Virus record (IMG/VR): IMGVR_UViG_3300018080_007205
From: an uncultured virus (IMG/VR IMGVR_UViG_3300018080_007205)
Lineage: Duplodnaviria; Heunggongvirae; Uroviricota; Caudoviricetes
DNA length: 20,000 nt
Direction: 5' to 3' (one strand)
The notes under the pieces were generated by a model that was given only the letters and a program-made list of their open reading frames with translations, was not told the DNA's origin and made no database searches. The position numbers were made by a program, and so were the translations under genes. This document shows, piece after piece, positions 2,679-20,000 of the stretch. Numbering within the stretch: the stretch's first letter is position 1; each line of letters begins with the position of its first letter.

Positions 2679-2755
2679 AGTTATCCATGCCCCTAAGTTT
2701 TTTGATGCTTCTCCAGATAGCACAACATCCTACTTATTGAACTCGTGTTGAGCCA

Positions 2756-5119: not shown

Positions 5120-5135
5120 CTCAAACACTCCTTTT

Positions 5136-7719: not shown

Positions 7720-7930
7720 ATTTACTTGCCTCCCCATTCGGTACAGCCGAAAGCTTACGGGACAGCCTCCTCCTTGTATCCCTCAAGGAACTCTCGGACT
7801 TCCGCAGGCTTTCGCGCGTGTGCTTGTGCTCCTTGCGCTCCCTGACGAGTTCCTCTGCCAGCATGGTTTCGTCTGAAAATCTGGACATCGCAATCACCAG
7901 GTCTTTATGTGTCCATGATATTCCAGCCAC
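7703..7930 (-). CDS. Hypothetical coiled-coil protein
   Basis: Charged helical sequence filling the gap between genes; start may be the ATG at 7888. Confidence 0.55.
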   Translation of the reverse strand: MAGISWTHKDLVIAMSRFSDETMLAEELVRERKEHKHTRESLRKSESSLRDTRRRLSRKLSAVPNGEASKYVAQD

Positions 7931-8187
7931 CTAAATACCACCTCGGCCGCTATTTGGCATTCCTCATGGCTGCCCAAGCACAAGGCGGGGACTTTCTGCT
8001 CCAGGTGGTATGCTAGGTCCGCTGCTAGCTCCTGCGGCTCTACCTTGTGTACCAGCGCCCTACAATCCGGACACTCGCCCCACGGCATTATCTCCCCCGC
8101 CAACACGCGCTCAAGGATCCCCTTTTCCCTCAGCTCCACGAGATCGACTTCCCGCAAAAGCTTCTTACAGTTCTGGCATTCAAACAT
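7894..8187 (-). CDS. Hypothetical Zn-finger protein
   Basis: CQNC...GEIMPWGECPDCRAL; SD AGGAG upstream. Confidence 0.7.
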   Translation of the reverse strand: MFECQNCKKLLREVDLVELREKGILERVLAGEIMPWGECPDCRALVHKVEPQELAADLAYHLEQKVPALCLGSHEECQIAAEVVFRWLEYHGHIKTW

Positions 8188-8206
8188 CTTGTTCTCCTAG
8201 ACTTGG

Positions 8207-8407
8207 TCAGAGGGCCTTTTTTACCAGGATATAAAGCATTATGACTGGCCAAAAGGGGGATAAAAGCGTCATTCTTGCCGCCGTTCTCTGGGGGTCCACT
8301 TTAGCTTGACCTGTTTCAAGGTCTGCTGACAACCAGAAATATAAAACAAATTGGACGAGCCCAAGCACATATATCAAACCAGCAATAGATAGAACCACCA
8401 TATCCAT
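8207..8407 (-). CDS. Small membrane protein
   Basis: Two hydrophobic segments, with an SPFWP motif before the second; coupled to the upstream stop. Confidence 0.65.
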   Translation of the reverse strand: MDMVVLSIAGLIYVLGLVQFVLYFWLSADLETGQAKVDPQRTAARMTLLSPFWPVIMLYILVKKAL

Positions 8408-8982
8408 CAGTTATTCTCTATTGCCTGGACCAGACCCTTCATTCCCTCGTCCATCTGACCTTCGGGCAGATCGTACACATACACATCCCACTCAAAAAGC
8501 ATGGTGCGAATAATGAACTCGATCATATCCCAGTCGCCGCCCCCAATTCCGCACCCGATCCTCGGCATGTGAATCGTAGTATCCTCAAGCTCGTCAGGAA
8601 CCAACATGTCCACTTTGTGGCTCTCATAGTTCCTGATCCATTGCGCAAGGTTGTGTAGACAGATGTGAACCGAGTCATATGACACGGGCACAGGGTTGTC
8701 AGGCGTCTTGTACCCTGCTTGTGCGATCATGTTGACGACCGCCACCCTCGGGGCAACGGGCACCACCTGGATCCTGCCATGGTGCTCATGAAGCATCTCT
8801 CTCTTCGCCCACAGGCGGTAACGCTCCTCTGGCTGCTTCCACTTCTTGCTTAGCGCAAGGACATATCCTGATCCCCATCCCCCCACATCGTTACAAATAT
8901 GGGGAAGTAGCCGCAAGCCATAACCAACCACTGGCTCAGTGGCGTCGCCCCTGAGGTATGTGATGTTGCTTGTTCTGCTCAT
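8407..8982 (-). CDS. Macrodomain ADP-ribosyl hydrolase (Poa1p/TARG1/SCO6735-like)
   Basis: ITYLRGDAT, HICNDVGGWGSG, VNMIAQ, IHMPRIGCGIGGGDW, VYVYDL. Start taken at ATG 8982. Confidence 0.92.
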   Translation of the reverse strand: MSRTSNITYLRGDATEPVVGYGLRLLPHICNDVGGWGSGYVLALSKKWKQPEERYRLWAKREMLHEHHGRIQVVPVAPRVAVVNMIAQAGYKTPDNPVPVSYDSVHICLHNLAQWIRNYESHKVDMLVPDELEDTTIHMPRIGCGIGGGDWDMIEFIIRTMLFEWDVYVYDLPEGQMDEGMKGLVQAIENN

Positions 8983-8996
8983 GACACCCAAGCCCC

Positions 8997-9392
8997 TCAC
9001 ATATCTACTTCCAGCGCCCGGCCGTACGACTTGCCGCTGTCAGCAGCGGCGATATAGGCGCTGTTTGTGACCGAGAACTGCTGCTTCCAGTGCCACCTGT
9101 CCATGACGAACTGGGAGAACTCGCCTGCGGTCAGCTTAACCTCATCCTCCACGCTCATCTCCAGCATGCGGATCGCCTGGTCGTATTCTGGAGTCTGGTT
9201 CATTGGGAACACGAGACCATGGCCTCTCGGAACGCGCTCGCCCTTCCTGGCACGATCCAGCTGATCCTCCAGCTCTTCGATCACCTTCTGCTTGAAAACC
9301 CCCAGCGCATCCTCGAACACCTCCAGGTGGTTCTTGCGGTTCTCTCTCAGGACTTTCAGGAGTTCTTCCTTCTTGACTTTCACAGACTCCAT
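8997..9392 (-). CDS. Hypothetical helical protein
   Basis: ATG 9392 with AGGAG SD; protein-like sequence (YDQAIRMLEMSV...EFSQFVMDRWHWK). Confidence 0.75.
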   Translation of the reverse strand: MESVKVKKEELLKVLRENRKNHLEVFEDALGVFKQKVIEELEDQLDRARKGERVPRGHGLVFPMNQTPEYDQAIRMLEMSVEDEVKLTAGEFSQFVMDRWHWKQQFSVTNSAYIAAADSGKSYGRALEVDM

Positions 9393-9402
9393 TCGCCTTC
9401 TC

Positions 9403-9951
9403 CTATTTCGCCACATCCGCCAGGTTCCTAGGAAACCTGCGGCGCGTTATCATTTTGAACAGTTTGTTGTTCTTCTCGGTCCACGCTCTCTTGTACGCCT
9501 TGGTGAGCCACAGGATCTTCAGGTGGTACTTCCCGTTCCCGCCATACCAGTTGTAGTGGCGCATCCAGTGAAAATTTTTGCTGCGGTGGGTGTGCGACGA
9601 CAGGCACGAGTCTCTGATCACCTTCATCAGCTTCGTGCCGTGGTTGACATTACATTCCAGTTTCAGCAGGTCGCACTTGCGAAGACCGAACCGCTTTTGC
9701 GCCATCCTGGACGGGGAATGGATCTGCATCAGCCCATAGTCACCGGTCGCCCCCCGAAGCCACGGCGTCATGTTGGACTCGTGCTTTGCGACCGCCAGCA
9801 CCATAACGGGGTCCAAGGATCTCATGGCTGCATATTTGCAGATGACCTTAGACATCCTGTACAGTCGTGCAAGCCTGTTAATCCTGTGCTCGAACGGTGT
9901 GGAGCACAGCGCCATGCCGGTTATCATTGCCGCGCACGCCGAGGCGCCCAT
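9403..9951 (-). CDS. Lytic transglycosylase, SLT-like domain
   Basis: LAVAKHES (catalytic Glu-Ser), GDYGLMQI, NV.HG and HYN motifs; hydrophobic N-terminus. Confidence 0.85.
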   Translation of the reverse strand: MGASACAAMITGMALCSTPFEHRINRLARLYRMSKVICKYAAMRSLDPVMVLAVAKHESNMTPWLRGATGDYGLMQIHSPSRMAQKRFGLRKCDLLKLECNVNHGTKLMKVIRDSCLSSHTHRSKNFHWMRHYNWYGGNGKYHLKILWLTKAYKRAWTEKNNKLFKMITRRRFPRNLADVAK

Positions 9952-10278
9952 CTACTTACACAGCCTTTCCACCTCCGACACCATCTGTAGCAGCGCCAGG
10001 TGGTAGGATATCAGGAAAAAATAGAAGCCGCAATAAGCGCCCACCAGCACCTTGGCTGCCCTCCTCTTCCAGAGCGACAGCGCCATCCAGCCCAGAAGCA
10101 TTGCCAGCAGGAGTTTTGGCAGCCACCACAGGCGACCGAAGGCGTTCATGAGCTTTAGCACCAGGAGATTGGATTCCTCCCCTATGCTGCTATTGACGAT
10201 CATCTCAGTCGTCACAATGTCCCCGACGGTCAGAAGAATAATAAATGCGTAAAGAAACACGGCTTTGATGCGTGTCAA
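9952..10278 (-). CDS. DUF5658-like membrane protein
   Basis: D-x2-TT...G-x-E-x-N pattern with three hydrophobic helices; TTG start with GGAGG SD. Confidence 0.7.
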   Translation of the reverse strand: MTRIKAVFLYAFIILLTVGDIVTTEMIVNSSIGEESNLLVLKLMNAFGRLWWLPKLLLAMLLGWMALSLWKRRAAKVLVGAYCGFYFFLISYHLALLQMVSEVERLCK

Positions 10279-10550
10279 TTGAACTCCTCCCTCGATCGCC
10301 CAGTCGCAATCAACATGGTCGACACCTCTTCCAAATGCGACAGGTCCTGGAACGGCACGGGCGGACTGGCGTGCTTTGTTCCGTCTTCAAACCCCATTGC
10401 GTACAAGTCGTCCGCCGTCTTGAGAAGAAACTCCCTGACGAGATCATGGTTCCCGCTCATACAGGCATCAAGGAATGTTTTGCTGCGCGCCAGCGCCTGT
10501 GCCAATCCGTCAACCCTTCCATCGTATCTCCAGCGGTTATGCATCGCCAA
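10275..10550 (-). CDS. Hypothetical protein
   Basis: ORF coupled to neighbours; start at 10550 (TTG) or 10544 (ATG). Confidence 0.65.
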   Translation of the reverse strand: MAMHNRWRYDGRVDGLAQALARSKTFLDACMSGNHDLVREFLLKTADDLYAMGFEDGTKHASPPVPFQDLSHLEEVSTMLIATGRSREEFN

Positions 10551-10866
10551 TGTCCTTCAAGAGCGCAACATACTCCAGCACAGCCAAACCGTGCCTCTCG
10601 TCGAACCCTGCTTCGACTGCCGCCTTGGCATACAGGCGGCGCATGTCGCTGACAAGGCACTCGTCGACGATGGACTCCAGCTCATCCTTCTCCACCATCT
10701 CGTCGCCCAACGAGGCGAGCACGCGCTTGCGCAGCTCGTTTCTGTCGGGGCATCTTACCGATGCTGTAGACCGAAGTAGTTCAACGCACTTGTCCGCCGG
10801 CAGGCTCCAGATTGCCTGGCTCGCCCACAGTGCGCGCGACACAGCGCGCTTTGTTTCAGGCCACAT
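10537..10866 (-). CDS. Hypothetical protein
   Basis: 109 aa ORF tiling between neighbours. Confidence 0.65.
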   Translation of the reverse strand: MWPETKRAVSRALWASQAIWSLPADKCVELLRSTASVRCPDRNELRKRVLASLGDEMVEKDELESIVDECLVSDMRRLYAKAAVEAGFDERHGLAVLEYVALLKDIGDA

Positions 10867-10996
10867 CTCCGCTGTTCGATCCGTCTTTCGGAAAGTGTTC
10901 TTTCATCCAATTCCGACCTTTTTTCGTGCGCTTGAAAAATGTAGCGAACGGCTTGTCCACCAGCGGCTTGTCCTCGTGCTTCTTTCCCTTCTTCAT
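10856..10996 (-). CDS. Small basic protein (46 aa), below the ORF-track cutoff
   Basis: MKKGKKHEDKPLVDKPFATFFKRTKKGRNWMKEHFPKDGSNSGDVA; ATGA overlap with the upstream stop; GGAGG SD; fills the gap exactly. Confidence 0.65.
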   Translation of the reverse strand: MKKGKKHEDKPLVDKPFATFFKRTKKGRNWMKEHFPKDGSNSGDVA

Positions 10997-11835
10997 ACAG
11001 TTTCCTCCAGCTCCGTATCGATAGCCTCGTCATTGAGTTTCGGATACCCGTAAATGGCAGGTCCGGTAAGTACGCGCAGGTTGTCCCTCATCTTCACCTC
11101 GCCCCCCCCATGCGTATGACCGCACAGTACCAGGAGGCTTTTGTCGGGACGCTCGTCCATCACCTCAAGCATGGCGTCGCCCATGGCTTTGGAAGAGAAG
11201 TACGGGAGCCATTCCAGGCTCGACATTTTGCCGTCGTACCAGGCGGCCTCGGGGAACGGCGGCACATGGGTTGCCACTATTGCCCTGTCGTGCTTGTCCA
11301 GCGCCGAGTTAAGCCTCGCCTTGACAGCCTCGGCAGCCTCGACCGACAGCTCCTCGAACTTGATGTGCATCAGCTGTTCCGAACCTCTGCTGCCATAGGG
11401 ATCGCTGTACGGACCCACAATTGCAATTTCCTGTATAAGCCTGAAATCATTCAGAGCGATACGACTTATCCTGCCGAACTTCGCATCGTACCAGCCGTCA
11501 TGCCCGATGAGAGCAGTGCCCCCAGGCAGAACCACCATATCCACGGCGGTCAGGTATGTGAGGTTGTCATTCTTGAGCATAATGTCAGTGGCAACCTCTC
11601 GCTCCTTTTTTATGGACGACCCGTAGAAGTCGTGGTTGCCCAGCACGAAATAAACGGTCGCGCCCGTCTTGGCGATTGCCTCAAGATGCCCTCTCAGCTT
11701 AGTGCCGTTGCTGATATCGCCGCAGACGACAACAGTGGAACCTTCCGGCAGTTCCTTCAGCGATTTCAGGAAGGCTTTCTTTCGGGTCCGAATCGCATGG
11801 TCAAGGTGTATGTCGTTGCACCAATACAGCTTCAT
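10993..11835 (-). CDS. Metallophosphoesterase (Icc/CpdA-like)
   Basis: NDIHLD, CGDIS, LGNHDFY, THVPP, CGHTH motifs. Confidence 0.9.
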   Translation of the reverse strand: MKLYWCNDIHLDHAIRTRKKAFLKSLKELPEGSTVVVCGDISNGTKLRGHLEAIAKTGATVYFVLGNHDFYGSSIKKEREVATDIMLKNDNLTYLTAVDMVVLPGGTALIGHDGWYDAKFGRISRIALNDFRLIQEIAIVGPYSDPYGSRGSEQLMHIKFEELSVEAAEAVKARLNSALDKHDRAIVATHVPPFPEAAWYDGKMSSLEWLPYFSSKAMGDAMLEVMDERPDKSLLVLCGHTHGGGEVKMRDNLRVLTGPAIYGYPKLNDEAIDTELEETV

Positions 11836-12221
11836 TGCTTTCCCGGCAGACGATAGGTTTCCGTCTCAAGGTCGTAACGCTTGCTCCTGATCATCTCGCA
11901 GACCTTTTTTGAAAGCCCGAGCTGCTGGAAGGCGGCACTCCAGTTGCCGTTTCTAACCTGCACATAGTCATAGGATCCGGATACATGGATCAGGTTTCCG
12001 GACTCGCTGTCCTTCCAGTAGATGCCGTCCGAATGTTCCTCGCTCGTGATCGTCGTACCGCGCAATTCCCAGCAGCGGTACGGCTTCGCCCCTGCCTCGG
12101 TAAGCTCCACTACAACCCAGTCAGCCCCTAGGGCCGTGGCGCTGCATGACGAGCAGCCCCGGTCCAGGTATGCGCATCCTCCCAGCATGATTACAAACAG
12201 CGCCATGTGACTTTTTTTCAT
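11832..12221 (-). CDS. Putative lipoprotein
   Basis: MKKSHMALFVIMLGG-C lipobox; ATG 12221 with AAGGAG SD. Confidence 0.7.
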   Translation of the reverse strand: MKKSHMALFVIMLGGCAYLDRGCSSCSATALGADWVVVELTEAGAKPYRCWELRGTTITSEEHSDGIYWKDSESGNLIHVSGSYDYVQVRNGNWSAAFQQLGLSKKVCEMIRSKRYDLETETYRLPGKQ

Positions 12222-12238
12222 AAATGTCTTCTCCTTTA

Positions 12239-13303
12239 TCATAAGGCTTTTGATGTAAAGGACTCTGCCGCCGGCAAGTCAAACAGAGTCCTTAGCATTT
12301 TCATCAGCTGCCTAGGATCAAGCGGCGGGCATGTATACCCGCCCTCTCCAGGTTTTTCCGGGCAAAGATCGCATGCGTCTCCCCACAAGTCGCCGTCCAT
12401 ATTTTTCTGGTCCGCATTTTTCTCGAACGGACAATTGTCATGCGCATCAGGTACGCTGTCGCCATCCATGTCAGCAGTAGAGTAGCAATATTTCTCTCCG
12501 CCTCCCCATGACACATATGTCGACATCGGATCGACCTGGTATGCCGTTGCTGCGAATCCGCATTTGTCGCCGCCATCAAACACCATCTTCCAGAGCTGCT
12601 TCTCGCCATGGCTGTTTTTCACCAAAAACGCCCCTCCGCGATTCCTGTACCCCACAATCAGGACGGCATGAGCCCCCGTTTGCTTGTTGTTGGTACAGTA
12701 GAGAATGTCTCCACTTTTCAGCCATCCACCCCAATTGCGCACGCCGACTATCACAGGACCGTACTGTAGCGCTTCAACAAGAAGTGGTTTTTTGGACAAG
12801 TAATCCATGCTTGTGGGATAGATCTCCCTGAAGCCGCCAGTGCGGTAGTACATAACCTGGTCTGGAAACACCGGTCCAGAATCAGACAGGAACACTGACA
12901 GACAGTTGCGGCACGGTCCCCACGACCCTGTTGGAGCCAGTTGCTCGGGCAAGATGCCGAAGTCCCTGATGTGCTCAAGAACGCCCGCTGGGTCCCCCCC
13001 CTCGTCGCACGGATGCCTGCGGCAATTGTGTATGTTCTGTTCCGACAGGTCCAGCATAATATTCACTCCGCGGTCTATGCCGAACTGTATTTCGTACGCT
13101 GCCGTGGCAGCATATAAAAAGCAATCTCCGCACGGCTGTCTTTTTATGGTTGTCATGTAGTTCTCAGGAACCCCATCCCCATCCAAGTCGACGGACGCCC
13201 AGGAGAAATGCTTGGGAAACTCATTAATGTCAGGAACACAGGTGCCGCCATCGCAGCAACCCCATGCGAACGCCATCATTACGACGACAAGTAAGATCCT
13301 CAT
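12239..13303 (-). CDS. Papain-family (C1A) cysteine peptidase, putative lipoprotein, with thrombospondin type-3 repeats
   Basis: Signal/lipobox [14 protein letters not shown] (Gln, catalytic Cys); [13 protein letters not shown] (His); VKNSHG (Asn); C-terminal [32 protein letters not shown]. Confidence 0.88.
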
Positions 13304-14496
13304 CTGCCCTCCATCAAAAGCGCCTTCTCAACCATATCGATACACAGCCTGTCTATCGCTTTCCTGTTCGGCTTGTACGGAACCACATATGTCTTGTTTT
13401 CATATATCTCGTCCAGCTCCTTGTGCTGCTTCTCCGACCACTCCATCATCTCGTCGAAGCTCCAGGCTCCATTCCGTATAGCAAGAAGCTCGTCGGCATC
13501 CGGGCGTTTCACGACCACTTTGCCTTCCTTCAGGATTTCTGACGACATTTTTAAAAGCCTGACGAGATGCATGGCATTTTTCGAATCGAATCCGTACTTG
13601 GCTTCCAGCTCCGCACGGGCAGGATTCCTGGTCTTCTTCCAGTTCTGATACTGCTTGTATTCCCTGAGCCGCGCCTTGTACCTGCGCTCCCTGTCCAGGT
13701 ATTCCAGGAAGTTGTCGCTGAACCCCAGGAGCCTGCCGGCAGCATCCGACAGGCGACCGACGTCCATGTCCTCGTCGACCGTCAGCGGCACGGGCGCTTC
13801 CCCCTGTAGACCAGCCCACATGTCACAAATCGACATGACGGTTTTCCTGCGCACCGCGTCCAGCACTGCGCGCGGAAGCTCCTCGTCCAGAAACAGCCAT
13901 TCCCCCACCTTCTTCTTGATCAGGCTCTCGGCCGCCAGCATCTGGTCCTTGGGTATGACCGTCCTGTGCGACAGCCCGTATTCCTCCCTGTTTGGCTTGC
14001 GCGCCGGAGGATTGAGCAACCAGCGCCTGTGGGTTCTGATCCTCTTGAGCTGGGACTGGGCATAGCCGCAGAAAGTGTACTTGGCCTTTGCGGACAGGAA
14101 CAGGTCCCTGCTGGCCAGCAGCTCTTCCATCAGCGGCTCCACCAGCACCTGGCACGAGTCTGAAAACAGGATCTCGATAATGTTAGGGTTACAGTCCGCC
14201 GCCAGCTTCATGAACTTTCGCAGCCCGAAAACGGTGGAGTCGATTTTCTCATCCTGCGGTATGCCGCGCCCGACCATCGATGCCAGCCTATCCACCAGAC
14301 CCTGACCGCCCACGCTGGCATCGCGCGGATACTCTCCCTCGAACTGCTCGAAATTCTTTTCGAACCCAAGGAAATACTCGCGCGGTGGAATACAGATGCC
14401 GCGCATGTCCACATCGGAATCCGGTCTGGAGGTTCCGTATGCATGACTGCCGGCCAGAACTATGTAGATCGTATGGTCATGGATGTTCCACTCCAC
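13300..14496 (-). CDS. Pol-beta-superfamily nucleotidyltransferase (RlaP/YcgL-like)
   Basis: [50 protein letters not shown] motifs. Confidence 0.9.
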
Positions 14497-14497
14497 G

Positions 14498-14983
14498 CTA
14501 CTTCTCCCTGTTCATTTCCACATTTCCGTGTTCATTCTCCCCCTCATTTCGCAGGTCATCGCGGATTTTCATAAGGAGCTTGCCAAGGTTGTTCTGCCCC
14601 TCCCACTCGCCTTTGTCGCTGCGGCACATTCCCCAGAAGCGATCGCCCCAATAGTTGCCTTCAATCAGCTTCTCGTCCCCCGTTGCCAACAGCCTCTTGC
14701 GCAGGTGCGGGATGGCGAACTTCTGCACCAGCAGACTGTACATGATGTCCTTCTTGACGGCGTCCCAGTCGGGACGCATCTGGACCCTTCTCCCCAGGTG
14801 CTTCGCCTTGCCCGCAGTCTGCGCCTTGCGGATTCTCTCGCGCTCCTCCCCGTTCTCAGCGACCTTGGCAGCCTGGTACGCGTGCTCGACGGTGGCGTAC
14901 CTCTCGCCATCAAGCTCCACGCATGATGCGTAAAAGTTGCTCAGGAAAGCGTTTTGACCTGTGAATATGTCGATTTCAGCCAT
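14498..14983 (-). CDS. NADAR (YbiA-like) N-glycosidase / ADP-ribose hydrolase
   Basis: FLSNFY, TVEHAYQAAK, AKHLGR, DWDAVK..IM, LLATGD..LIEGNYWGDRFWG, GQNNLGKLLMKIR. Confidence 0.95.
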   Translation of the reverse strand: MAEIDIFTGQNAFLSNFYASCVELDGERYATVEHAYQAAKVAENGEERERIRKAQTAGKAKHLGRRVQMRPDWDAVKKDIMYSLLVQKFAIPHLRKRLLATGDEKLIEGNYWGDRFWGMCRSDKGEWEGQNNLGKLLMKIRDDLRNEGENEHGNVEMNREK

Positions 14984-14990
14984 TCCTCAC

Positions 14991-15191
14991 CTATTCGGCG
15001 TAAAAATCCGGCGAGCAGCTGGCAGCATCGAGCCGAGGATCCCACCATTCCCGCATGGCGCGCCTGATCGCATCAGCCCTGCTGACAGCCAGGAACTCCC
15101 AGCGGTTCAGCGGATAGGTCATGTCATACTCGTCCTGGTAGTTTGCCACAACCATCCATCGCTTTAAACTTGCTGGTCCGCGTCCGCTCAT
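14991..15191 (-). CDS. Hypothetical protein
   Basis: ATGA overlap with upstream gene; GGAAAAGGA upstream. Confidence 0.65.
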   Translation of the reverse strand: MSGRGPASLKRWMVVANYQDEYDMTYPLNRWEFLAVSRADAIRRAMREWWDPRLDAASCSPDFYAE

Positions 15192-15739
15192 TCCTTTTCC
15201 TCTTTTTCGTATTGCCGCTGTTGCTCGTCCGCGAGCCTTGCGTATTCCTCCAGGTCGATCTCCTCGTCGGCATCGTCATTCTCAAAGTCTGCGGCATCCC
15301 CGAATTCCACCTCGACAACCTGGGTCCGGTTGCGCATATCCTCCAGCAGCTCGGACATCTCGCGCTCCGCATCCTCTATCTGCTTCAGGATGACGGGAAC
15401 CGTCATCGCTCTCTTCATCTGCGTGGCGTTCTCCTCGATGTCGTCAAGTTCGCGCTTCAGTCTTCCGATCCTGCCGCCGATCCGGTTTATCTTCTCAGAC
15501 TCGGTCGACGATGCCTCCCTGCGCTGCCGCTTAATCTCGCGCTTCTCCTTGCCGCGCACCACGATAGGGGGTCGAGATAGGCGGTCGCCATAAATACCAA
15601 ATTTAAACAGCCGCTCCATGCGCCGTTCGGCAGCTATGATGGTGCGCGCGGCGCGACCGCTCCGCTTTCCACCCTTGATTTTTATCTGGTGCCCGAATGT
15701 CCTAGCCCCGCGCGCCCACTTGGTTTTATCGTCAGACAT
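15188..15739 (-). CDS. Hypothetical protein with basic N-terminus, coiled-coil and acidic tail
   Basis: 183 aa ORF, GGGAG SD. Confidence 0.7.
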   Translation of the reverse strand: MSDDKTKWARGARTFGHQIKIKGGKRSGRAARTIIAAERRMERLFKFGIYGDRLSRPPIVVRGKEKREIKRQRREASSTESEKINRIGGRIGRLKRELDDIEENATQMKRAMTVPVILKQIEDAEREMSELLEDMRNRTQVVEVEFGDAADFENDDADEEIDLEEYARLADEQQRQYEKEEKE

Positions 15740-15818
15740 GAAGTTCTCCCGGAAGCATGGAGAAACAAACGATTTCTTTGCAAATTGGATGCATCAACGC
15801 GCGCGCGAATCCTTCGGA

Positions 15819-16064
15819 TTATCCGGTCGGCACAGGCGGTCCGCTCCACTTCGGACAGAGGCCCGAAACCTCGGCAAGGGAGAACAGCGCATGCTTCTCA
15901 GTCGGCGTACACGCTTCGGCGTCAACGACCACTTTGCCGCCCTTCGTTTTCATTTTCGGCATGGAACCGCCGTAATTTTGCTGCAGGATGTTTGTGTACA
16001 TGATGAGCCGCGATGTAGCCGCCAGCTCTGCCATGGCATTGTACTTTGTAATTTTCTTGCCCAT
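15819..16064 (-). CDS. Hypothetical protein
   Basis: ATG 16064 overlaps the upstream stop (TAATG); MGKKITKYNAM..., 81 aa. Confidence 0.6.
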   Translation of the reverse strand: MGKKITKYNAMAELAATSRLIMYTNILQQNYGGSMPKMKTKGGKVVVDAEACTPTEKHALFSLAEVSGLCPKWSGPPVPTG

Positions 16065-16525
16065 TAGTCGCGTCCCACAATGAGAGGCCACTCGCTTCTG
16101 GGAACTTTCCTGAGCACCAGGAGTTGCCTACACCTGATTTTGATTTTTTGCCCACCAAGTTGGTTGAGCGGAACAACTATGTCTCCCGGTCTTACCGCAA
16201 CTTCGACGATCCTGTCTGCACGGCCGGACCATGTTCCCTTGCTTCTGTTTACAACCCATCCAACCGCATTTTTTAGGGGGGCTACATGTAGACCGGCACC
16301 ACACGAGACAGCCCTATGTTCGTCCATCACCCTCACCCTCACTAGCGTTCCAGGCTTGTAGGGGGCTTTCTTGCCATGGGGTCTATGACGGATGCTCCAT
16401 GGTTTGTAGAGCGGACCATACACAGCCTTGTAGAACAGCAGATGTTTCTCTTTGCCGATAGTCTTGGTTCTGATGCCATGCTTTTTAACAAAACTGCGCA
16501 GCCCGTTCGGCCATCTCTTTGCCAT
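16064..16525 (-). CDS. rIIB C-terminal-like / DUF7666-like domain protein
   Basis: FYKAV...YKPG...D...SCGAGLHV...RIVEVAVRPGDIVVP...KIRCR pattern, recalled from T4 rIIB C-terminus and DUF7666. Confidence 0.6.
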   Translation of the reverse strand: MAKRWPNGLRSFVKKHGIRTKTIGKEKHLLFYKAVYGPLYKPWSIRHRPHGKKAPYKPGTLVRVRVMDEHRAVSCGAGLHVAPLKNAVGWVVNRSKGTWSGRADRIVEVAVRPGDIVVPLNQLGGQKIKIRCRQLLVLRKVPRSEWPLIVGRD

Positions 16526-16537
16526 GTCTTGCCCCTT

Positions 16538-17401
16538 TCACCATTCGCGCCCGTCGGGATCCTTGCCATGGTTTTCCATGTATCCCTCGACCACGAAGTA
16601 TTTGCACGAACATGTTCCATCCGTGAAAAAGTTCAGCGAGTTGACGGATGTCTTGACAGTTCTCCAGAACACCACCTCGTGCCCGTAGATCTCGAACGCC
16701 TCGGCGTCCTCCACGAACCTTCTCTTCGGCGGTCCGAAGATCTGCGACACCTTCGTGTACGTGCGCTCGTAGGCCGCGATGTCCGGAGCCAGCAGCTCCG
16801 CCCTGGTGTCGGTGGACGGTCTTCGTATCTGTACGTACCGCACGTTGTCGAACTTGCAGACATACCTCAGTATGTCGAAGAACTTCCACTCGTTGCACCT
16901 GTTGAGCACGATCGACACGCGCGGCCTCTCGGTAGCCGGTATGACATAGTCCCAGTCAGGCATGTCCGACCTTCCGAGTATCATCCTAGTCGTAACAGGA
17001 TCGACCGAATGTATGCTGTACCCTGTCGACAGGTCGCACTGGTTGATGGTCTCCATGTGCTTGTGAGCCAGGTAGCCGTTCGTTCTCAGCCCGACGCCGA
17101 ACCCCCTGACTTTCAGGGAATCCACCAACTCCGCCAGGTACTTGTACAGCAGAGAATCAGTGTTCTGTCCCGTGATGTAGACCTTCCTGACACCTTCGCG
17201 CTTCACCCTTGCCAGGAAGCGGTCGAAGTTCTTCCATTCGCTGAAGTGCGTGCGTAGCTGGTTGTGCTTGTTCAGCAGCTCGCCGATGTCCTTGCCCAGG
17301 CAAAAGAAGCAGTCGACGTTGCATTTTCCCAGCAGGTTGATGTTCGCGAACGAATATGCGTCGCGTTTGCGGTTCTTGGATGCGCTGGCGCAAGTAATCA
17401 T
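16538..17401 (-). CDS. Radical SAM protein
   Basis: CNVDCFFC (CxxxCxxC), then YITGQ and LRTNG; ATG 17401 overlaps the upstream TGA. Confidence 0.88.
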   Translation of the reverse strand: MITCASASKNRKRDAYSFANINLLGKCNVDCFFCLGKDIGELLNKHNQLRTHFSEWKNFDRFLARVKREGVRKVYITGQNTDSLLYKYLAELVDSLKVRGFGVGLRTNGYLAHKHMETINQCDLSTGYSIHSVDPVTTRMILGRSDMPDWDYVIPATERPRVSIVLNRCNEWKFFDILRYVCKFDNVRYVQIRRPSTDTRAELLAPDIAAYERTYTKVSQIFGPPKRRFVEDAEAFEIYGHEVVFWRTVKTSVNSLNFFTDGTCSCKYFVVEGYMENHGKDPDGREW

Positions 17402-17658
17402 GATCCCAGCCACAGAGAAAGGTAGTACACTCCAAAGCTCAGCGCCAGTACAATCGCCACAACTAGCGCGATAAGAAAAAAGAAGACAAAGCCTAGCGCG
17501 CCGGACCCAGAGTTCTCCTGTTTTGCTATCATGTAGAACAGAAGCATCGCCACAAGCGACAGTCCCGCGCCCACCAGCGCCGGAATCGCGTTTCCAACCA
17601 GGAAGCAGATGCCGCCGAAGAACAGTATTGGAATAAGTATCATTAATGCGACAATCAT
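17398..17658 (-). CDS. Small membrane protein (three TM)
   Basis: Highly hydrophobic; GGAGG SD. Confidence 0.7.
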   Translation of the reverse strand: MIVALMILIPILFFGGICFLVGNAIPALVGAGLSLVAMLLFYMIAKQENSGSGALGFVFFFLIALVVAIVLALSFGVYYLSLWLGS

Positions 17659-17736
17659 TTTCTATCCTCCATGTCTCCAGATTGGTCCAAGGTCGTGTTC
17701 CAGCCTGTGTAACTCACGGTCGCACGGTCCGTAAAT

Positions 17737-17982
17737 TCACCCGCCTCCCCAGAAGTCCTCGCCCAGATCCGGCAGGTCGCCGGAGCCGGCATCCGGCACC
17801 AAGTCGGGCAGCGGCGCGGCGTCCGGCGGCGAAACCGTGTCCGGAGACAAGGTGTCGGGCACCAAGGAATCCGGAGCAGCCGCATCCGGATGTGCGAACA
17901 TGTCCGGGCAGTCTACCCACTCGTCCGCGGCGCAGGCGGCCATTACCAGTGCGCATGCGACCATTACAGCTGCCTTTGCCAT
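17737..17982 (-). CDS. Putative lipoprotein with Pro-Asp-rich repeats
   Basis: ATG 17982 with GAGGAG SD; LVMAA-C lipobox; repeated PDxxx units. Confidence 0.7.
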   Translation of the reverse strand: MAKAAVMVACALVMAACAADEWVDCPDMFAHPDAAAPDSLVPDTLSPDTVSPPDAAPLPDLVPDAGSGDLPDLGEDFWGGG

Positions 17983-18548
17983 ATTCTCCTCATCAGTTCC
18001 CCCTCTTTTCTTGCCGCACGGGCTATATACGGGCAAGCCCTCTCTTCCATGTGCGTAAGCATAAATCGGCACACATGCTCCGCATTTCCGTGCGCGTCGC
18101 GTTCGAACTTTCGCCAGATGTCAGACGGCCAGATGTTCTCGTCACACAGCAGGCGGTACCTGTCCCCACGCAGATATGACACCATCTGAATGGCAAGCAC
18201 AGCGCAAACTTTGCCTTCATCAATGAAGTTCGGGAGAGACTTTGGCGACATTCCAAACGCGGCATACATGCTGTTGAAATAGAACGACTCCCTTTCTCCG
18301 GATTTATCGACCGGAATCATCAGCGCCCTCAGGCTGTCAAACTGTCTGAAATGCACCTTCATCAGCATTTCGAACAGCCTCATCAGCTTTACGCCCTGAC
18401 CGGCCGGAATGAACAGTTTCCTGCCGATATCCAGGAACAGCCTACCAAGATAGAGGCACGACTCTGCCTGGCGCTTGACATAGTTTCCCTCATCCAACTT
18501 CTCTGCCCATACTTTCGGAGAAGGGATCAGGCTGGCGTGGCACCTCAT
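17964..18548 (-). CDS. Hypothetical protein
   Basis: 194 aa ORF tiling between neighbours. Confidence 0.7.
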   Translation of the reverse strand: MRCHASLIPSPKVWAEKLDEGNYVKRQAESCLYLGRLFLDIGRKLFIPAGQGVKLMRLFEMLMKVHFRQFDSLRALMIPVDKSGERESFYFNSMYAAFGMSPKSLPNFIDEGKVCAVLAIQMVSYLRGDRYRLLCDENIWPSDIWRKFERDAHGNAEHVCRFMLTHMEERACPYIARAARKEGELMRRIWQRQL

Positions 18549-18564
18549 TGTCAGATCCCGTCTG

Positions 18565-18786
18565 TCATTTAGATTCTTCCGCTGCCTTCTGTACCTTTTC
18601 CTTGGCGCAGCAGTTGCCAGACAAGTAGGCGAACCCTCCAGCCATTGCCGCTATCGCGATCGCCAAGGCAATTAAGCAGATGAAAGTGCGCTCTCTCAGA
18701 TCGACCATGAGGTACAAAAGAAAAATGCCGCAGCTTCCGTAAAAAATGACTGTCAGAAAAGCCTCGATTGGAGTTTCAAATCCCAT
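18565..18786 (-). CDS. Small membrane protein
   Basis: Start taken at ATG 18786 (MGFETPIE), overlapping the upstream gene end; two TM segments. Confidence 0.6.
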   Translation of the reverse strand: MGFETPIEAFLTVIFYGSCGIFLLYLMVDLRERTFICLIALAIAIAAMAGGFAYLSGNCCAKEKVQKAAEESK

Positions 18787-19798
18787 CTTCAATCTCCGAT
18801 TCAAGCGGGAGCGTCCCCACAAATCTCCTCGCTGTCAGAATGTCCTCTTTGGAATCGTCGTACACTTCTATGGACGGCACGCTCACACGCTCCATCTCCG
18901 GGTACCTGAGGGCGGTCAGATGACCGCCAAAGACGCACGCGGTGTCGATGTTGATCGTCTTATGTAGTGCCCTGGGGGCGTATACCGGCTGGTGACCATA
19001 GATAATCAGGGGCGAATCCCGGTCCACCCTGCGCTCCATCGCCCAGTCAATCCTGTCCGGGAAACCGTTTTCAAGAACCTTGCCCGTAGTGGGTCCGTAT
19101 ATGCAGTAGGCTTTCACCCTCCTGCTTGGATCCCCTATGCCTCGAAACTCGTCCTTCCACGCGGCATGCACGACCACGAGCCTGCCGTCGTCCAGCTCCA
19201 GGAAATAGTTCAGGTTGGACATGAAATCGAACAGCTCCCCCTTGTCCACCTTCGCCTCGCACAGCTGGTCGAGCGTCTTGTCGAGCCCGTTATTCTCCTT
19301 TACCTTGTTCCCCTTCGCCCAGCGCATCAGCTTGTCGCAGTGGTTCCCCATGATCCAGCGCGCCCTTTGGGCGCGGCACATGCGCATCGCATACAGTATG
19401 ACCTCGTCCGACTGCGGTCCCCTGTCTGCCAGGTCCCCTAGGAATATCAGCTTGCGGTCGCCCACGTCGTGAAGAATGCCGTCGTCCCCGTCCTCCACCT
19501 TGTGTCCAAGAGCGCGCATCAGGATCAGCAGCTCGTGCCAGCATCCGTGTATGTCCCCTATGATATCGTACTTGGGAACATTTTTCCTTGGCTTGATTGA
19601 TACGACAGCATCCTCCTTTTCCAGCGGACACGATATGTGCCTCCATGTTCGGCACTCCTCCTTGCTTGGAGACCAAGCCGGGTGGTTGCCCGGCCAGTCA
19701 TCCAGGTGGGCACCTAGGAGTTCGCACCCCCCAAGCACATCTTCATACATGTAAAAGGAAAAAGGGCAGCTCGAACATCCGTCGTATTTACGCCTCAT
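18776..19798 (-). CDS. PrpE/Pnkp-phosphatase-like metallophosphoesterase with N-terminal Cys-rich domain
   Basis: YDIIGDIHGC, FLGDLADRGP, GNHCDKL, LDDGRLVVVHA, YGPTTG...GFPDRIDWA, YGHQP, NIDTACVFGGHLTALRYPE; these match the bacterial Pnkp phosphatase domain and B. subtilis PrpE. SD AGGAG at 19806-19810. Confidence 0.9.
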   Translation of the reverse strand: MRRKYDGCSSCPFSFYMYEDVLGGCELLGAHLDDWPGNHPAWSPSKEECRTWRHISCPLEKEDAVVSIKPRKNVPKYDIIGDIHGCWHELLILMRALGHKVEDGDDGILHDVGDRKLIFLGDLADRGPQSDEVILYAMRMCRAQRARWIMGNHCDKLMRWAKGNKVKENNGLDKTLDQLCEAKVDKGELFDFMSNLNYFLELDDGRLVVVHAAWKDEFRGIGDPSRRVKAYCIYGPTTGKVLENGFPDRIDWAMERRVDRDSPLIIYGHQPVYAPRALHKTINIDTACVFGGHLTALRYPEMERVSVPSIEVYDDSKEDILTARRFVGTLPLESEIEDGI

Positions 19799-19810
19799 AA
19801 CAGAACTCCT

Positions 19811-19903
19811 TGGTTGATCGGGCGGGGTTCGAACCCGCGTCTTTCATCCTGACGGCTGATCAGGCCGACACCGATGAATGTCCTTCCGCTAGACGACCGA
19901 CCG
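19811..19903 (-). tRNA. Atypical tRNA-like gene with 19-nt-extended anticodon arm and encoded CCA
   Basis: Minus-strand sequence CGGTCGG TC GTCT AGCGGAA GGAC A TTCATCGGTGTCGGC CTGATCA GCCGTCAGGATGAA AGAC GCGGG TTCGAAC CCCGC CCGATCA A CCA. It has an acceptor stem (6 of 7 paired), U8, a D arm with A14/G15/GG, a perfect T arm with TTCGA, A73 and CCA. Confidence 0.85.
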
Positions 19904-19936
19904 TGACCGCCTGCTAGCCGACGGTCATCTCCGCGC

Positions 19937-20000
19937 TCATTGATCGTCATCCTCCTGGCTTCCCAGGAGTTCTTCCACGATGCCCGACACGTCGATGCCG
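19937..20000 (-). CDS. 3' end of a gene entering from the right edge
   Basis: Open frame ...GIDVSGIVEELLGSQEDDDQ ending at TGA 19937-19939. Confidence 0.55.
   Translation of the reverse strand, partial: GIDVSGIVEELLGSQEDDDQ

What the first reader, a model, noticed from the sequence alone, without database searches (positions are those of the whole stretch)
19811..19903. tRNA-like RNA with a doubled-length anticodon arm
Seen in sequence: the acceptor, D and T arms and CCA are canonical, but the anticodon arm (19843-19878) is 36 nt instead of 17. It folds as TTCATC/GATGAA (6 bp), a 2x1 internal loop, TG/CA, a T-T mismatch, CGGC/GCCG, and a 7-nt loop CU-GAU-CA. The loop keeps C32/U33-like residues and an Ile-like GAU triplet but has a pyrimidine at position 37. 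The extra sequence is base-paired, which argues against random decay. Inference: the arm is too long to decode in the ribosome. It could be (a) a non-decoding tRNA mimic or decoy against anticodon nucleases or tRNA-sensing defences, (b) a precursor whose 19-nt insert is excised and religated by the co-encoded Rnl1 ligase and phosphatase, or (c) a structural ncRNA. I know of no described family with this architecture.
Basis: partly seen in the sequence, partly recalled or inferred. Interest (0 to 1): 0.85.

Follow-up and report, generated by a model that had tools for sequence, protein, structure and literature searches.

The report
Phage tRNA look-alike with palindromic loop
This phage gene makes an RNA shaped like a tRNA whose codon-reading arm is twice the normal length and ends in a conserved self-pairing loop; unrelated-looking phages keep the same design, so it is a working RNA that cannot translate, and its job is still unknown.

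Summary
On the minus strand (19903 to 19811) lies a 93-nt RNA gene with tRNA acceptor, D and T arms, an encoded CCA and a 36-nt anticodon arm. Rfam tRNA scores it 40 bits with a 25-nt insert. It is neither a unique decayed gene nor a spliced precursor. At least two other deep phage lineages in IMG/VR (four contigs: L214, L239, L205, L215) carry the same design. They share a glutamate-type tRNA core and a 35-37-nt arm made of a basal helix, a purine internal loop and an upper helix. The cap is an identical loop, CUGAUCA, closed by C-G. Nine of the 13 arm pairs show changes on both sides. No single excision gives a loop with U33. Phages L214 and L239 also carry normal tRNA-Ile(GAU) and tRNA-Glu genes. 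The loop holds the 6-nt palindrome UGAUCA, and C at position 37 is what makes it a palindrome. The same capped hairpin recurs on other tRNA-like scaffolds in phages. It is almost absent from 120 chance matches in bacterial genomes. The RNA-repair neighbourhood is particular to this phage, not to the family. Function is unknown. My best guess is a non-decoding tRNA mimic that acts through loop pairing or protein titration. The closest known examples are phage T5 RNA1 and RNA2.

The parts
19811..19903 (-). Whole tRNA-like RNA gene, 93 nt including the encoded CCA (19811-19813) and discriminator A (19814)
   Evidence: Rfam RF00005 scores 40 bits, E 2.7e-7, over 19814-19903. The MFE fold is a cloverleaf. 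CM R2 built from it finds homologs.
19897..19903 (-). Acceptor stem, 5' strand; it pairs with 19815-19821. C1.A72 is mismatched and G3.U70 is a wobble pair.
   Evidence: In the family the two outermost pairs are often unpaired: 2 of 5 sequences at 1:72 and 3 of 5 at 2:71. RNAalifold predicts only 5 acceptor pairs.
19880..19894 (-). D arm: stem GUCU/GGAC with U13.G22, and a 7-nt loop carrying GG
   Evidence: All 4 D-stem pairs are invariant in 5 of 5 family sequences.
19843..19878 (-). Extended anticodon arm, 36 nt. Parts: basal helix 19873-19878 with 19843-19848; internal loop GG (19871-19872) opposite G (19849); upper helix 19864-19870 with 19850-19856, including one U.U.
   Evidence: Of 13 pairs, 9 have changes on both sides and 91.9% of cells are paired. 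Arm length is 35-37 nt in 5 members.
19857..19863 (-). Apical 7-nt loop CUGAUCA closed by C-G. It contains the 6-nt palindrome UGAUCA (8 nt, CUGAUCAG, if the closing G is counted).
   Evidence: Read from the sequence and matched by TGATCA at 19857-19862. The loop is identical in L214, L239, L205 and L215.
19839..19842 (-). 4-nt variable region AGAC (no nucleotide 47)
   Evidence: It is shared with tRNA-Glu-type bodies recovered.
19822..19838 (-). T arm: GCGGG, loop UUCGAAC, CCCGC
   Evidence: Three of 5 T-stem pairs show changes on both sides in the family.
19815..19821 (-). Acceptor stem, 3' strand. Base 19817 (tRNA position 70) is the only difference from the near-identical contig L007: U here, C there.
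   Evidence: 1 mismatch in 10,177 aligned bases. The window's own variant is present in the contigs of run X1.
19796..19811 (-). Shine-Dalgarno AAGGAG (19806-19811, overlapping the last A of CCA) and the ATG (19796-19798) of the downstream 340-aa metallophosphoesterase gene (18776-19798)
   Evidence: Sequence, ORF list, Pfam Metallophos 1.3e-12.
19904..19939 (-). 33-nt spacer and the TGA stop (19937-19939) of the upstream 137-aa gene. The RNA gene fills almost the whole intergenic gap.
   Evidence: ORF 10114-10527 of L007 mapped onto the window. No promoter-like or terminator-like site lies next to the gene on its own strand.

Best explanation
This is a member of a conserved, so far uncatalogued family of phage RNAs that are tRNA mimics and do not decode.

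Shown here:
- The RNA keeps an intact tRNA core of the glutamate type: U11:A24, U13.G22, A46, no nucleotide 47, G18G19, and a T loop.
- In place of a 17-nt anticodon stem-loop it carries a rod 35-37 nt long.
- The rod has a basal helix of 5-6 bp, a small purine-rich internal loop and an upper helix of 6-7 bp.
- It is capped by an invariant 7-nt loop, CUGAUCA, closed by C-G.
- The helix sequences differ between lineages, but pairing and length are kept.

Inferred:
- The RNA is transcribed with its neighbours and cut out by RNase P and 3' trimming, like a tRNA.
- It folds into an L shape.
- Its loop sits about 8-9 base-pair layers (roughly 25 Angstrom) beyond where an anticodon would be, so it cannot reach the decoding centre.
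- The frayed top of the acceptor stem, and the absence of the GluRS, IleRS and AlaRS identity sets, make charging unlikely.

The working end is the conserved loop. My preferred mechanism has a probability of about 0.35. The loop is self-complementary, so two molecules could pair loop to loop through GAUC or UGAUCA. That would give a tail-to-tail dimer with a tRNA body at each end. Such a dimer could act as a decoy or sponge for proteins that bind tRNAs in the phage-host contest over tRNA. Here it sits beside the phage's own RNA-repair kit. Whether the loop pairs with itself, pairs with a GAU anticodon or binds a protein was not tested.
For: Reality as a tRNA-like gene:
- Rfam tRNA scores 40 bits.
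- The cloverleaf is the MFE fold.

Homologs:
- A scan for Glu-type bodies with long spacers placed no constraint on the loop. It returned 22 viral loci.
- Two of them, L013 and L016, have the identical loop and different stems.
- A CM built from the window and L007 only (R2) ranks L013 (62.7 bits), L205 (51.8) and L016 (49.1) above all other matches in 53 sources totalling 129 kb.

Covariation on the R2 alignment of 5 sequences:
- 93% of cells are paired, against 36-52% when partners are slid.
- 16 of 29 pairs have changes on both sides, including 9 of the 13 arm pairs.
- 0 of 500 shuffles reach the observed score.
- RNAalifold independently predicts the two-part arm and the 7-nt loop; 14 of its 25 pairs are compensatory.
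- Arm length is 35-37 nt in 5 members.

Not the phage's Ile or Glu decoder:
- L033 and L035 hold 20 and 19 tRNAs, including tRNA-Ile(gat) and tRNA-Glu(ttc).

The capped hairpin is phage-specific:
- A hairpin of at least 4 bp plus a T stem of at least 5 bp occurs in 8 of 19 viral matches but in 1 of 120 bacterial or archaeal matches to the same pattern.
- With a wider T-loop pattern, 15 of 90 viral matches are structured, about 12 lineages.
- The Rfam tRNA model places the insert in the anticodon arm for L204, L200, L270, L213, L255 and L254.

C37 matters:
- I scanned with the same pattern but the canonical A37 loop. By eye from the folds, most of the 17 loci have an ordinary-size anticodon hairpin followed by a long variable arm, not an extended anticodon arm. 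The stem is exactly 5 bp in 10 of 17.

Self-complementary loops recur beside it:
- UGCGCA in L038 and L270, on covarying stems.
- Two copies of CCUGUGCACAGG in a second tRNA-like gene of L041.

G.U pairs in the arm fit selection on this RNA strand.
Against: - No RNA data exist for this gene, so expression and ends are unknown.
- The family alignment has only 5 sequences from 3 deep lineages, and it was fitted to the model's structure.
- L205 and L215 were found through the loop sequence itself, so their loop identity is ascertainment. Only L013 and L016 are independent on that point.
- The nearest body relative, L004 (47.2 bits with R2), has a shorter arm with a different, non-palindromic cap. 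The cap is therefore not universal.
- Across 20 distinct Glu-type extended arms, palindromes at loop apexes are not significantly enriched: 3 observed against 1.1 expected, and 15 of 200 shuffles reach 3.
- A simple UGAUCA duplex is weak, at -5.0 kcal/mol.
- The RNA-repair context that suggests a tRNA-conflict role is absent from the other family records.
- The window's arm alone is no more stable than 26% of shuffles.
Confidence: 0.5

Rival explanations
1. A monomeric anticodon-stem-loop mimic. The top 17 nt (a 5-layer stem plus the loop with C32, U33, GAU, C37 and A38) imitate the anticodon arm of tRNA-Ile(GAU). The pedestal keeps the mimic out of the ribosome. The RNA titrates or blocks a protein that reads that loop, such as an anticodon nuclease, a modification enzyme or a defence sensor.
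For: The loop is 7 nt with C32, U33 and A38, closed by C-G. It is one change (A37 to C) from the CUGAUAA loop carried by the 17 tRNA-shaped loci of the control scan. In all structured viral matches it appears as a 7-nt loop on a helix of at least 4 bp. In this phage the gene lies among RNA-repair genes. t6A37 is given as a strong determinant for bacterial-type IleRS (PMC9976931, passages read), so C37 would prevent charging and decoding.
Against: A decoy should copy its model, yet position 37 is invariably the wrong base. Companion loops in related RNAs (UGCGCA, GUGCAC) do not resemble anticodon loops. Phages L214 and L239 carry their own tRNA-Ile(GAU). I know of no tRNA-Ile-specific defence nuclease; the one paper I read uses tRNA-Ile only as a general substrate (PMC11724271, passages read).
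Confidence: 0.2
2. A codon mimic. The loop presents AUC(A) in an anticodon-loop-like stack and pairs with the GAU anticodon of tRNA-Ile. This would sequester, shield or mark that tRNA.
For: The loop contains AUCA, which is complementary to U33-G34-A35-U36 of a GAU anticodon loop (read from the sequence). From recalled knowledge, complexes between complementary anticodon loops are unusually stable; no call supports this point.
Against: This cannot be told apart from self-pairing, because any palindrome contains a triplet and its complement. There are no data. Phages that bring their own tRNA-Ile(GAU) also keep the RNA.
Confidence: 0.1
3. A processing signal only. The tRNA-shaped body recruits RNase P and 3' nucleases to cut the operon transcript between the two genes and to stabilise the downstream mRNA. 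The arm is lengthened merely to keep the by-product out of translation.
For: The gene fills the gap between two same-strand genes. The Shine-Dalgarno sequence starts at the last base of CCA. No promoter-like or terminator-like site lies beside it on its strand. L004 has the same layout.
Against: This does not explain an invariant loop or a length-conserved arm across lineages. It also does not explain why most family members sit inside tRNA arrays, not between protein genes.
Confidence: 0.1
4. An intron-containing pre-tRNA. About 19 nt are cut out and the halves are joined by the phage Rnl1 and phosphoesterases, giving a decoding tRNA.
For: Rnl1, an Rnl2-like ligase, three metallophosphoesterases and a CCA-adding enzyme are encoded nearby. 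Lak megaphage tRNA genes with 'introns' have been reported (PMC6784885).
Against: Every contiguous excision that leaves a 5-bp stem and a 7-nt loop gives G at position 33, in the window and in L214 (read from the sequences). There is no bulge-helix-bulge motif. The insert is too short for a group I intron, and no intron family matched. Helices inside the 'insert' covary as a permanent structure. None of the 5 homolog records has Rnl1, PolyA_pol or RlaP.
Confidence: 0.03
5. A decaying tRNA pseudogene or an assembly artefact.
For: Single-sequence folding energy is not exceptional. The acceptor stem has a mismatch.
Against: The same sequence occurs in two independent assemblies. The design is conserved with compensatory changes in other phages. 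All core tertiary-pair nucleotides are intact (read).
Confidence: 0.02

Closest known systems
Phage T5 RNA1 and RNA2 (NC_005859 30501-30644 and 32959-33083, annotated 'tRNA-like stable RNA with unknown functions')
   Same: They are phage-encoded. They have a tRNA acceptor, D and T arms and a much lengthened anticodon arm in the MFE folds. Their function is unknown.
   Different: They are longer (144 and 125 nt), have other bodies and other arm tops, and lack a CUGAUCA cap. Neither matched model R1 at E <= 0.01 when the T5 locus was searched, so no sequence homology is shown. They lie in a tRNA cluster, whereas the window's gene stands alone among protein genes.
tRNA genes with 'enigmatic introns' in Lak megaphages (Devoto et al. 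2019, PMC6784885; passages read)
   Same: They are phage tRNA-shaped genes that are too long for a tRNA and carry conserved inserted sequence of unknown meaning.
   Different: Those were interpreted as introns from eukaryote-mode tRNAscan output. One insert was proposed to hold a tRNA itself. I did not compare their sequences with this one, and I did not read that paper's supplementary tables.
Canonical bacterial or phage tRNA-Glu (Rfam RF00005)
   Same: The core matches. The D arm and 4-nt variable region are identical to tRNA-Glu genes recovered (L005 and L006; ARAGORN Glu). It has a T loop, G18G19 and an encoded CCA.
   Different: The anticodon arm is 36 nt, not 17 nt. There is no UUC or CUC anticodon. 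The 1:72 pair is mismatched.
Retroviral dimerisation initiation site and other kissing hairpins (review PMC7357161, search listing only; details recalled)
   Same: A hairpin loop carries a 6-nt self-complementary sequence.
   Different: This is an analogy only, and no dimer is shown here. The loop has 7 nt with a single unpaired flanking base, and the predicted duplex is weaker (-5.0 against -10.9 kcal/mol for GCGCGC).
tmRNA and bacterial Y-RNA-like YrlA (tRNA-like modules joined to a long helix)
   Same: A tRNA-like acceptor and T-arm module is combined with a long helix where the anticodon arm would be.
   Different: ARAGORN finds no tmRNA. Neither family appears among the matches at E <= 10 in the local Rfam scan. 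There is no tag reading frame. The ends of the RNA are at the acceptor stem, not at the long helix.

Membership tests
tRNA (Rfam RF00005), structural membership | Cloverleaf with acceptor, D and T arms that scores above the family's gathering threshold | tested here: met
   40 bits against a gathering score of 29, full model 1-71, in the local scan. It was missed by the filtered whole-window scan.
Decoding tRNA | 5-bp (at most 6-bp) anticodon stem with a 7-nt loop at the canonical distance from the core | tested here: not met
   The arm is 36 nt with about 13 stacked layers. A review gives 5 bp as the rule and 6 bp for the known exceptions (PMC7609411).
Decoding tRNA | U33 and a purine at position 37 flanking the anticodon | tested here: not met
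   The apical loop has U33 but C37. C37 is invariant in all homologs.
tRNA-Ile(GAU) | Body and identity set of tRNA-Ile (A37/t6A37; anticodon in a normal arm) | tested here: not met
   The body is of Glu type. Position 37 is C. t6A37 is a strong determinant for bacterial-type IleRS (PMC9976931). L033 and L035 carry separate normal tRNA-Ile(gat) genes.
tRNA-Ala or alanine-accepting mimic | G3.U70 with A73, G2-C71 and G4-C69 (bacterial set, PMC9976931) | tested here: not met
   The window has G3.U70, G2-C71 and A73, but U4-A69. L007 has G3-C70, and 4 of 5 family sequences have G-C at 3:70.
tRNA gene with an archaeal-type (bulge-helix-bulge) or group I intron | Two 3-nt bulges flanking a 4-bp helix at the splice sites, or a group I ribozyme core; excision restores a canonical loop | tested here: not met
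   The internal loop is 2x1 nt. The insert is 25 nt and no intron family matched. All single excisions leave G33 (sequence).
tmRNA | tRNA-like domain plus a tag reading frame and pseudoknots | tested here: not met
   ARAGORN reports no tmRNA in the window. RF00023 is not among the matches in the local scan.
Phage tRNA-like stable RNAs of the T5 RNA1/RNA2 kind | Phage-encoded; tRNA body with an over-long anticodon arm | tested here: met
   The architecture is shared, as shown by the folds of T5 RNA1 and RNA2 and of the window RNA.
Phage tRNA-like stable RNAs of the T5 RNA1/RNA2 kind | Accumulates as a stable RNA in infected cells | not testable with these tools
   No run on record as RNA holds the region.
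CUGAUCA-capped Glu-type tRNA look-alikes (family defined here) | Glu-type core, a 35-37-nt two-helix arm, and a C-CUGAUCA-G cap | tested here: met
   Window, L007, L214, L239, L205 and L215. Covariation is reported.

The most novel reading that the evidence does not exclude
Phages make tRNA-shaped RNAs that join tail to tail through palindromic kissing loops. With one such loop they would form dimers. With two different palindromic loops, as in L038/L270, L204 and the second RNA of L041, they could form chains or rings. Either way they would build multivalent displays of tRNA bodies. These would soak up or mis-assemble host proteins that attack tRNAs during infection. This would be an RNA-based anti-defence principle resting on self-assembly, not on decoding.
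Probability: 0.2. Interest if true: 0.85.

Novelty: new variant of a known kind. Interest (0 to 1): 0.62.

Why it matters
Phage tRNA genes are now read mainly as a way to replace host tRNAs destroyed by defence nucleases. Non-decoding tRNA look-alikes have been known since the T4 and T5 stable RNAs but remain unexplained.

This case gives such RNAs a defined, testable anatomy. It has a glutamate-type core, a pedestal of fixed length and an invariant self-complementary loop. The same cap recurs on several scaffolds in many uncultured phages, and it is rare in bacterial genomes.

That turns a vague class into specific experiments: dimerisation, binding partners, and the effect of a single C37 change. 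It also warns annotators that ARAGORN labels this gene tRNA-Ile. It should not be counted as a decoder when inferring phage codon supply or host range.

Tried and rejected
- **Own genome.** None is held for this window. The 106-kb metagenome record behind L007 could not be searched as a whole, so I do not know whether the phage has other tRNAs beyond the 30 kb I saw (1 tRNA-like gene).
- **Close relatives.** blastn of 701 bases against GenBank phages found nothing. An exact 58-nt pattern and the neighbouring protein found nothing in IMG/VR. The first D-arm/T-arm pattern gave 0 in IMG/VR.
- **tblastn with neighbouring genes.** The neighbouring phosphoesterase, the CCA enzyme and RlaP gave only hits at 41% identity or less. 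The best of these, LR745208, shares only RlaP and one more gene and has no tRNA near them.
- **blastn of the RNA itself.** Searches with the window RNA and with L214 against GenBank phages gave only T-arm-sized matches.
- **Sequencing runs.** One DNA holder was listed and no RNA holder. Laying its contigs showed the window's own sequence with no variants or joints.
- **L004.** It has the same body and a shorter arm with a different cap. Rfam does not call it a tRNA. Its flanks show no protein similarity to the window, and its context is DUF932/DUF6573.
- **Palindromic loop apexes as a general rule for Glu-type extended arms.** Not significant.
- **TGATCA avoidance or enrichment in the window.** None: 6 observed against 6.6 expected.
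- **A GP88-family gene next to L039 and also in the window.** It lies 19 kb from the RNA here, so I judged it coincidence.
- **Pairing of the loop with GAUCA in the window's own acceptor 3' strand.** Rejected, because L007 and the homologs lack that sequence.
- **Literature.** Searches for extended or elongated anticodon stems, for phage tRNA-like RNAs with kissing or self-complementary loops, and for tRNA decoys found no description of this design. I went by the search listings, and read passages only where cited.
Full report
**1. What is there**

The finding lies on the minus strand. Read from 19903 down to 19811, the sequence gives a 93-nt RNA. Its parts, in order:
- a 7-position acceptor stem, with C1.A72 mismatched and G3.U70 a wobble;
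- U8 and C9;
- a D arm GUCU/GGAC with a 7-nt loop carrying GG;
- A26;
- a 36-nt arm (19878-19843);
- a 4-nt variable region, AGAC;
- a T arm, GCGGG-UUCGAAC-CCCGC;
- discriminator A and an encoded CCA.

The arm has a 6-bp basal helix, GG opposite G, and a 7-layer upper helix with one U.U. It ends in the loop CUGAUCA.

Rfam's tRNA model matches end to end at 40 bits (gathering score 29) with 25 inserted bases at the anticodon loop. This appeared only in a local, permissively filtered scan; the default scan of the window found nothing. ARAGORN labels it tRNA-Ile(gat) with a shifted, poorer fold, and its intron mode gives the same result.

Folding energy alone is unremarkable. The z-score is -0.9. 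Of 5000 shuffles of the insert, 1296 fold the arm as well.

**2. Setting**

All genes in the window run on the minus strand. The RNA gene fills a 138-nt gap. The upstream 137-aa gene stops at 19937-19939. The Shine-Dalgarno sequence of the downstream 340-aa metallophosphoesterase starts at the last A of CCA. No promoter-like or terminator-like site lies beside it on its strand, so co-transcription and excision by tRNA-processing enzymes is the likely route. This is an inference.

A metagenome contig of 106 kb (L007) is identical to the window over 10,177 bases except for one base. That base is window 19817, tRNA position 70, which is U here and C there; pairing is kept. The window's own variant is in the contigs of one public DNA run.

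L007 extends the view 9.9 kb upstream. Together, the roughly 30 kb encode:
- Rnl1-type RNA ligase;
- RlaP nucleotidyltransferase;
- a NADAR protein;
- three metallophosphoesterases;
- a radical-SAM protein;
- Lon protease and an AAA ATPase;
- a CCA-adding enzyme with an HD domain;
- an Rnl2-like ligase with a weak N-terminal tRNA_bind match (E 5.6e-4, below Pfam's cut-off).

No other tRNA gene was found in these 30 kb. The phage has no close relative in GenBank phages or IMG/VR.

**3. Homologs**

The D arm and the 4-nt variable region are those of tRNA-Glu-type bodies. A pattern joining this D arm to a T arm found normal tRNA-Glu genes with the same words in other metagenome contigs (L005 and L006).

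[quoted passage not shown] I name that from memory. The identity review mentions an augmented D stem and deletion of 47 as GluRS recognition features, and it lists the Sekine 1996 paper (PMC9976931, passages read).

I then scanned IMG/VR for Glu-type D arms followed by an over-long spacer and a T arm, with no condition on the spacer. This gave 22 loci. All fold as tRNA bodies with extended anticodon arms of many kinds.

Two of them have the same loop, CUGAUCA, closed by C-G. They also share the AGAC variable region and the same arm plan, but with different helix sequences. They are L013 and L016, the same contigs as L033/L041/L214 and L035/L048/L239.

Scans anchored on the loop plus a T arm added two more. 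L205 lies on a 157-kb contig that is 90% complete, and L215 (= L042) lies on a 41.7-kb contig.

A covariance model built only from the window and L007 (R2) was run over 53 sources totalling 129 kb. It ranked:
- L013 at 62.7 bits;
- L205 at 51.8 bits;
- L016 at 49.1 bits;
- next, L004 at 47.2 and L002 at 46.1 bits.

**4. Covariation**

On the R2-based alignment of five sequences from three deep lineages, 93% of cells pair, against 36-52% when partners are slid by 1-3 columns. Sixteen of 29 pairs have changes on both sides. No shuffle out of 500 reaches the observed score.

In the arm, 9 of 13 pairs change on both sides and one never varies; that one is the closing C-G. RNAalifold, given the same alignment without my structure, predicts a 5-bp basal and a 6-bp upper helix, the 7-nt loop, and only five acceptor pairs. 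Fourteen of its 25 pairs are compensatory.

The arm is 35-37 nt long in all five members despite unrelated helix sequences.

Caveats:
- There are few sequences.
- The alignment was fitted to the model.
- L205 and L215 were found through the loop itself, so only L013 and L016 speak independently for loop conservation.

The two outermost acceptor pairs are unpaired in 2 of 5 and 3 of 5 sequences. Only the window encodes CCA.

**5. Not a decoder, not a precursor**

A review of non-canonical tRNAs gives 5 bp as the rule for anticodon stems and 6 bp for tRNA-Pyl, tRNA-Sec-like species and mt-tRNA-Ser (PMC7609411). This arm stacks about 13 layers.

Any contiguous 19-nt excision that keeps the basal 5-bp stem leaves a loop with G at position 33. 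I read this from the sequence for the window and for L214. There is no bulge-helix-bulge motif, and no intron family matched.

The L013 and L016 phages carry this RNA inside arrays of 20 and 19 tRNA genes. Those arrays also contain ordinary tRNA-Ile(gat) and tRNA-Glu(ttc).

The five records holding homologs have no Rnl1, no CCA-enzyme head domain and no RlaP (0 of 5 each). Four of these records are fragments and one is 90% complete. The RNA-repair neighbourhood therefore belongs to this phage, not to the family.

**6. The loop**

CUGAUCA contains the palindrome UGAUCA, or CUGAUCAG if the closing G is counted. The canonical Ile-type loop, CUGAUAA, differs only at position 37.

Three comparisons bear on this.

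(i) I ran the same pattern (cap plus T arm) against both collections.
- It matched 19 IMG/VR loci. In 8 of them the cap closes a hairpin of at least 4 bp next to a T stem of at least 5 bp.
- In bacterial and archaeal genomes, 1 of 120 matches does so: L063, probably part of a tmRNA.

(ii) With a looser T loop, 15 of 90 IMG/VR matches are structured, about 12 lineages.
- Rfam's tRNA model aligns full length, with the insert in the anticodon arm, for L204 (40.9 bits), L200 (37.3), L270 (42.0), L213 (44.8) and L255 (32.4).
- It aligns nearly full length for L254 (29.3 bits).
- The cap therefore sits on several different tRNA bodies.
- L208, L218, L230, L195, L268 and L272 did not score as tRNA at E <= 0.1.

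(iii) I ran a control with the canonical A37 loop at the same extended spacing.
- It gave 17 loci. The stem is exactly 5 bp in 10 of them, 8 bp in one, 4 bp in two and 2 bp or less in four.
- By eye from the folds, the extra length is a long variable arm after an ordinary anticodon hairpin.

Other palindromic loops accompany the cap in related RNAs:
- UGCGCA on covarying stems in L038 and L270;
- UCUAGA in L204;
- two copies of CCUGUGCACAGG in a second tRNA-like gene of L041.

Several results cut against a general rule:
- Among 20 distinct Glu-type extended arms, only 3 have a hexamer palindrome centred on a hairpin loop, against 1.1 expected; 15 of 200 shuffles reach 3.
- L004, the closest body relative, has a different cap.
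- A bare UGAUCA duplex is worth only -5.0 kcal/mol.
- TGATCA is neither avoided nor enriched in the window.

**7. How it most likely works**

Shown: this is a conserved RNA with an intact tRNA core, a pedestal of fixed length and an invariant cap.

Inferred:
- It is processed and folded like a tRNA.
- It is excluded from decoding by geometry.
- It is probably not charged, because the GluRS anticodon, the IleRS A37 and the AlaRS set are all missing or not conserved.

The cap is the business end. I favour RNA-RNA pairing through the palindrome, at a probability of about 0.35. Self-complementarity is the only property shared by the different companion loops. Pairing would give a dimer with a tRNA body at each end, able to occupy tRNA-binding proteins in the conflict over host tRNAs.

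Rivals are a monomeric anticodon-arm decoy (0.2), a codon mimic for tRNA-Ile (0.1), a mere processing signal (0.1), a spliced precursor (0.03) and a pseudogene (0.02).

**8. Comparison with what is known**

Phage T5 RNA1 and RNA2 are annotated as tRNA-like stable RNAs of unknown function. They fold as tRNA bodies with long anticodon arms, but they did not match model R1.

Lak megaphage tRNA genes with 'enigmatic introns' are the other published parallel (PMC6784885). I did not read that paper's supplementary tables, which hold the sequences.

Rfam has no family for this RNA. My literature searches found no description of it.

Earlier notes of this scan describe similar look-alikes, some with palindromic loops. 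I used them as leads only.

**9. Verdict**

The RNA is a new, well-defined variant of a known but unexplained kind of phage RNA.

Noticed in passing
window 19817 (L007 9994): The only difference in 10,177 aligned bases between the window and contig L007 lies inside the RNA gene, at tRNA position 70 (U versus C). It converts G3.U70 to G3-C70 and keeps the pair.
   Followed up: partly
window 1353-19798 and L007 10114-18378: There is a dense set of RNA-end enzymes. It includes Rnl1 (6481-7737), RlaP (13300-14496), NADAR (14498-14983) and three metallophosphoesterases (1353-2204, 10993-11835, 18776-19798). Upstream in L007 lie a CCA-adding enzyme with an HD domain (L007 11780-13291) and an Rnl2-like ligase with a weak N-terminal tRNA_bind match (L007 17011-18378).
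   Followed up: partly
window 2756-6503: The phage encodes a full-length LonA-type protease (835 aa, with substrate-binding, AAA and S16 domains), followed by a separate 455-aa AAA ATPase.
   Followed up: no
window 12239-13303: A 354-aa protein has a papain-family cysteine protease domain and a thrombospondin type 3 repeat.
   Followed up: no
window 2262-2723: A pyrimidine-dimer DNA glycosylase (Pyr_excise, 4.4e-22) is encoded here.
   Followed up: no
L004 2198-2284: A metagenome contig carries a relative with the same D arm, variable region and T arm, and an SD plus ATG right behind it. Its arm is shorter (29 nt) and capped by a 4-bp hairpin with loop GACG, and its acceptor stem is poor. Rfam does not call it a tRNA.
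   Followed up: partly
L041 3844-3954: The phage that holds homolog L214 has a second tRNA-like gene of 111 nt (Rfam tRNA 34.7 bits). Its insert contains the 12-nt palindrome CCUGUGCACAGG twice.
   Followed up: no
L038 2990-3114 and L270 232-355: These tRNA-like RNAs of about 125 nt have an anticodon domain with two hairpins. One carries the palindromic loop UGCGCA on covarying stems (GCGG/CCGC versus CCUG/CAGG). The other carries the CUGAUCA cap.
   Followed up: partly
L039 2930-3053 (= L204, L032): A 124-nt tRNA-like RNA has a class-II-type D loop, a promoter-like sequence before it and a U-run after it. It carries a hairpin whose loop contains UCUAGA and a second hairpin with the CUGAUCA cap. 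A GP88-family gene lies 430 bases upstream.
   Followed up: partly
L176, L177, L180, L187, L191: These viral contigs hold tRNA genes with a class II shape (long variable arm, long D loop) but a GAU anticodon in a normal CUGAUAA loop. That is an unusual body for an isoleucine anticodon.
   Followed up: no
L208 593-643: A Pistol ribozyme match (44.9 bits against a gathering score of 34.5) is cut off by the end of the locus. It lies about 250 bases downstream of a CUGAUCA-capped hairpin.
   Followed up: no
L001 4775-4846 and L003 885-956: Phage tRNA arrays hold Glu-type bodies with shortened anticodon loops (about 5 nt by eye), next to normal tRNAs.
   Followed up: no
L008 6960-7084 (phage T5 RNA2): In the MFE fold, the long anticodon arm of T5 RNA2 ends in a hairpin whose 7-nt loop, UUCGAUU, looks like a T loop.
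   Followed up: no
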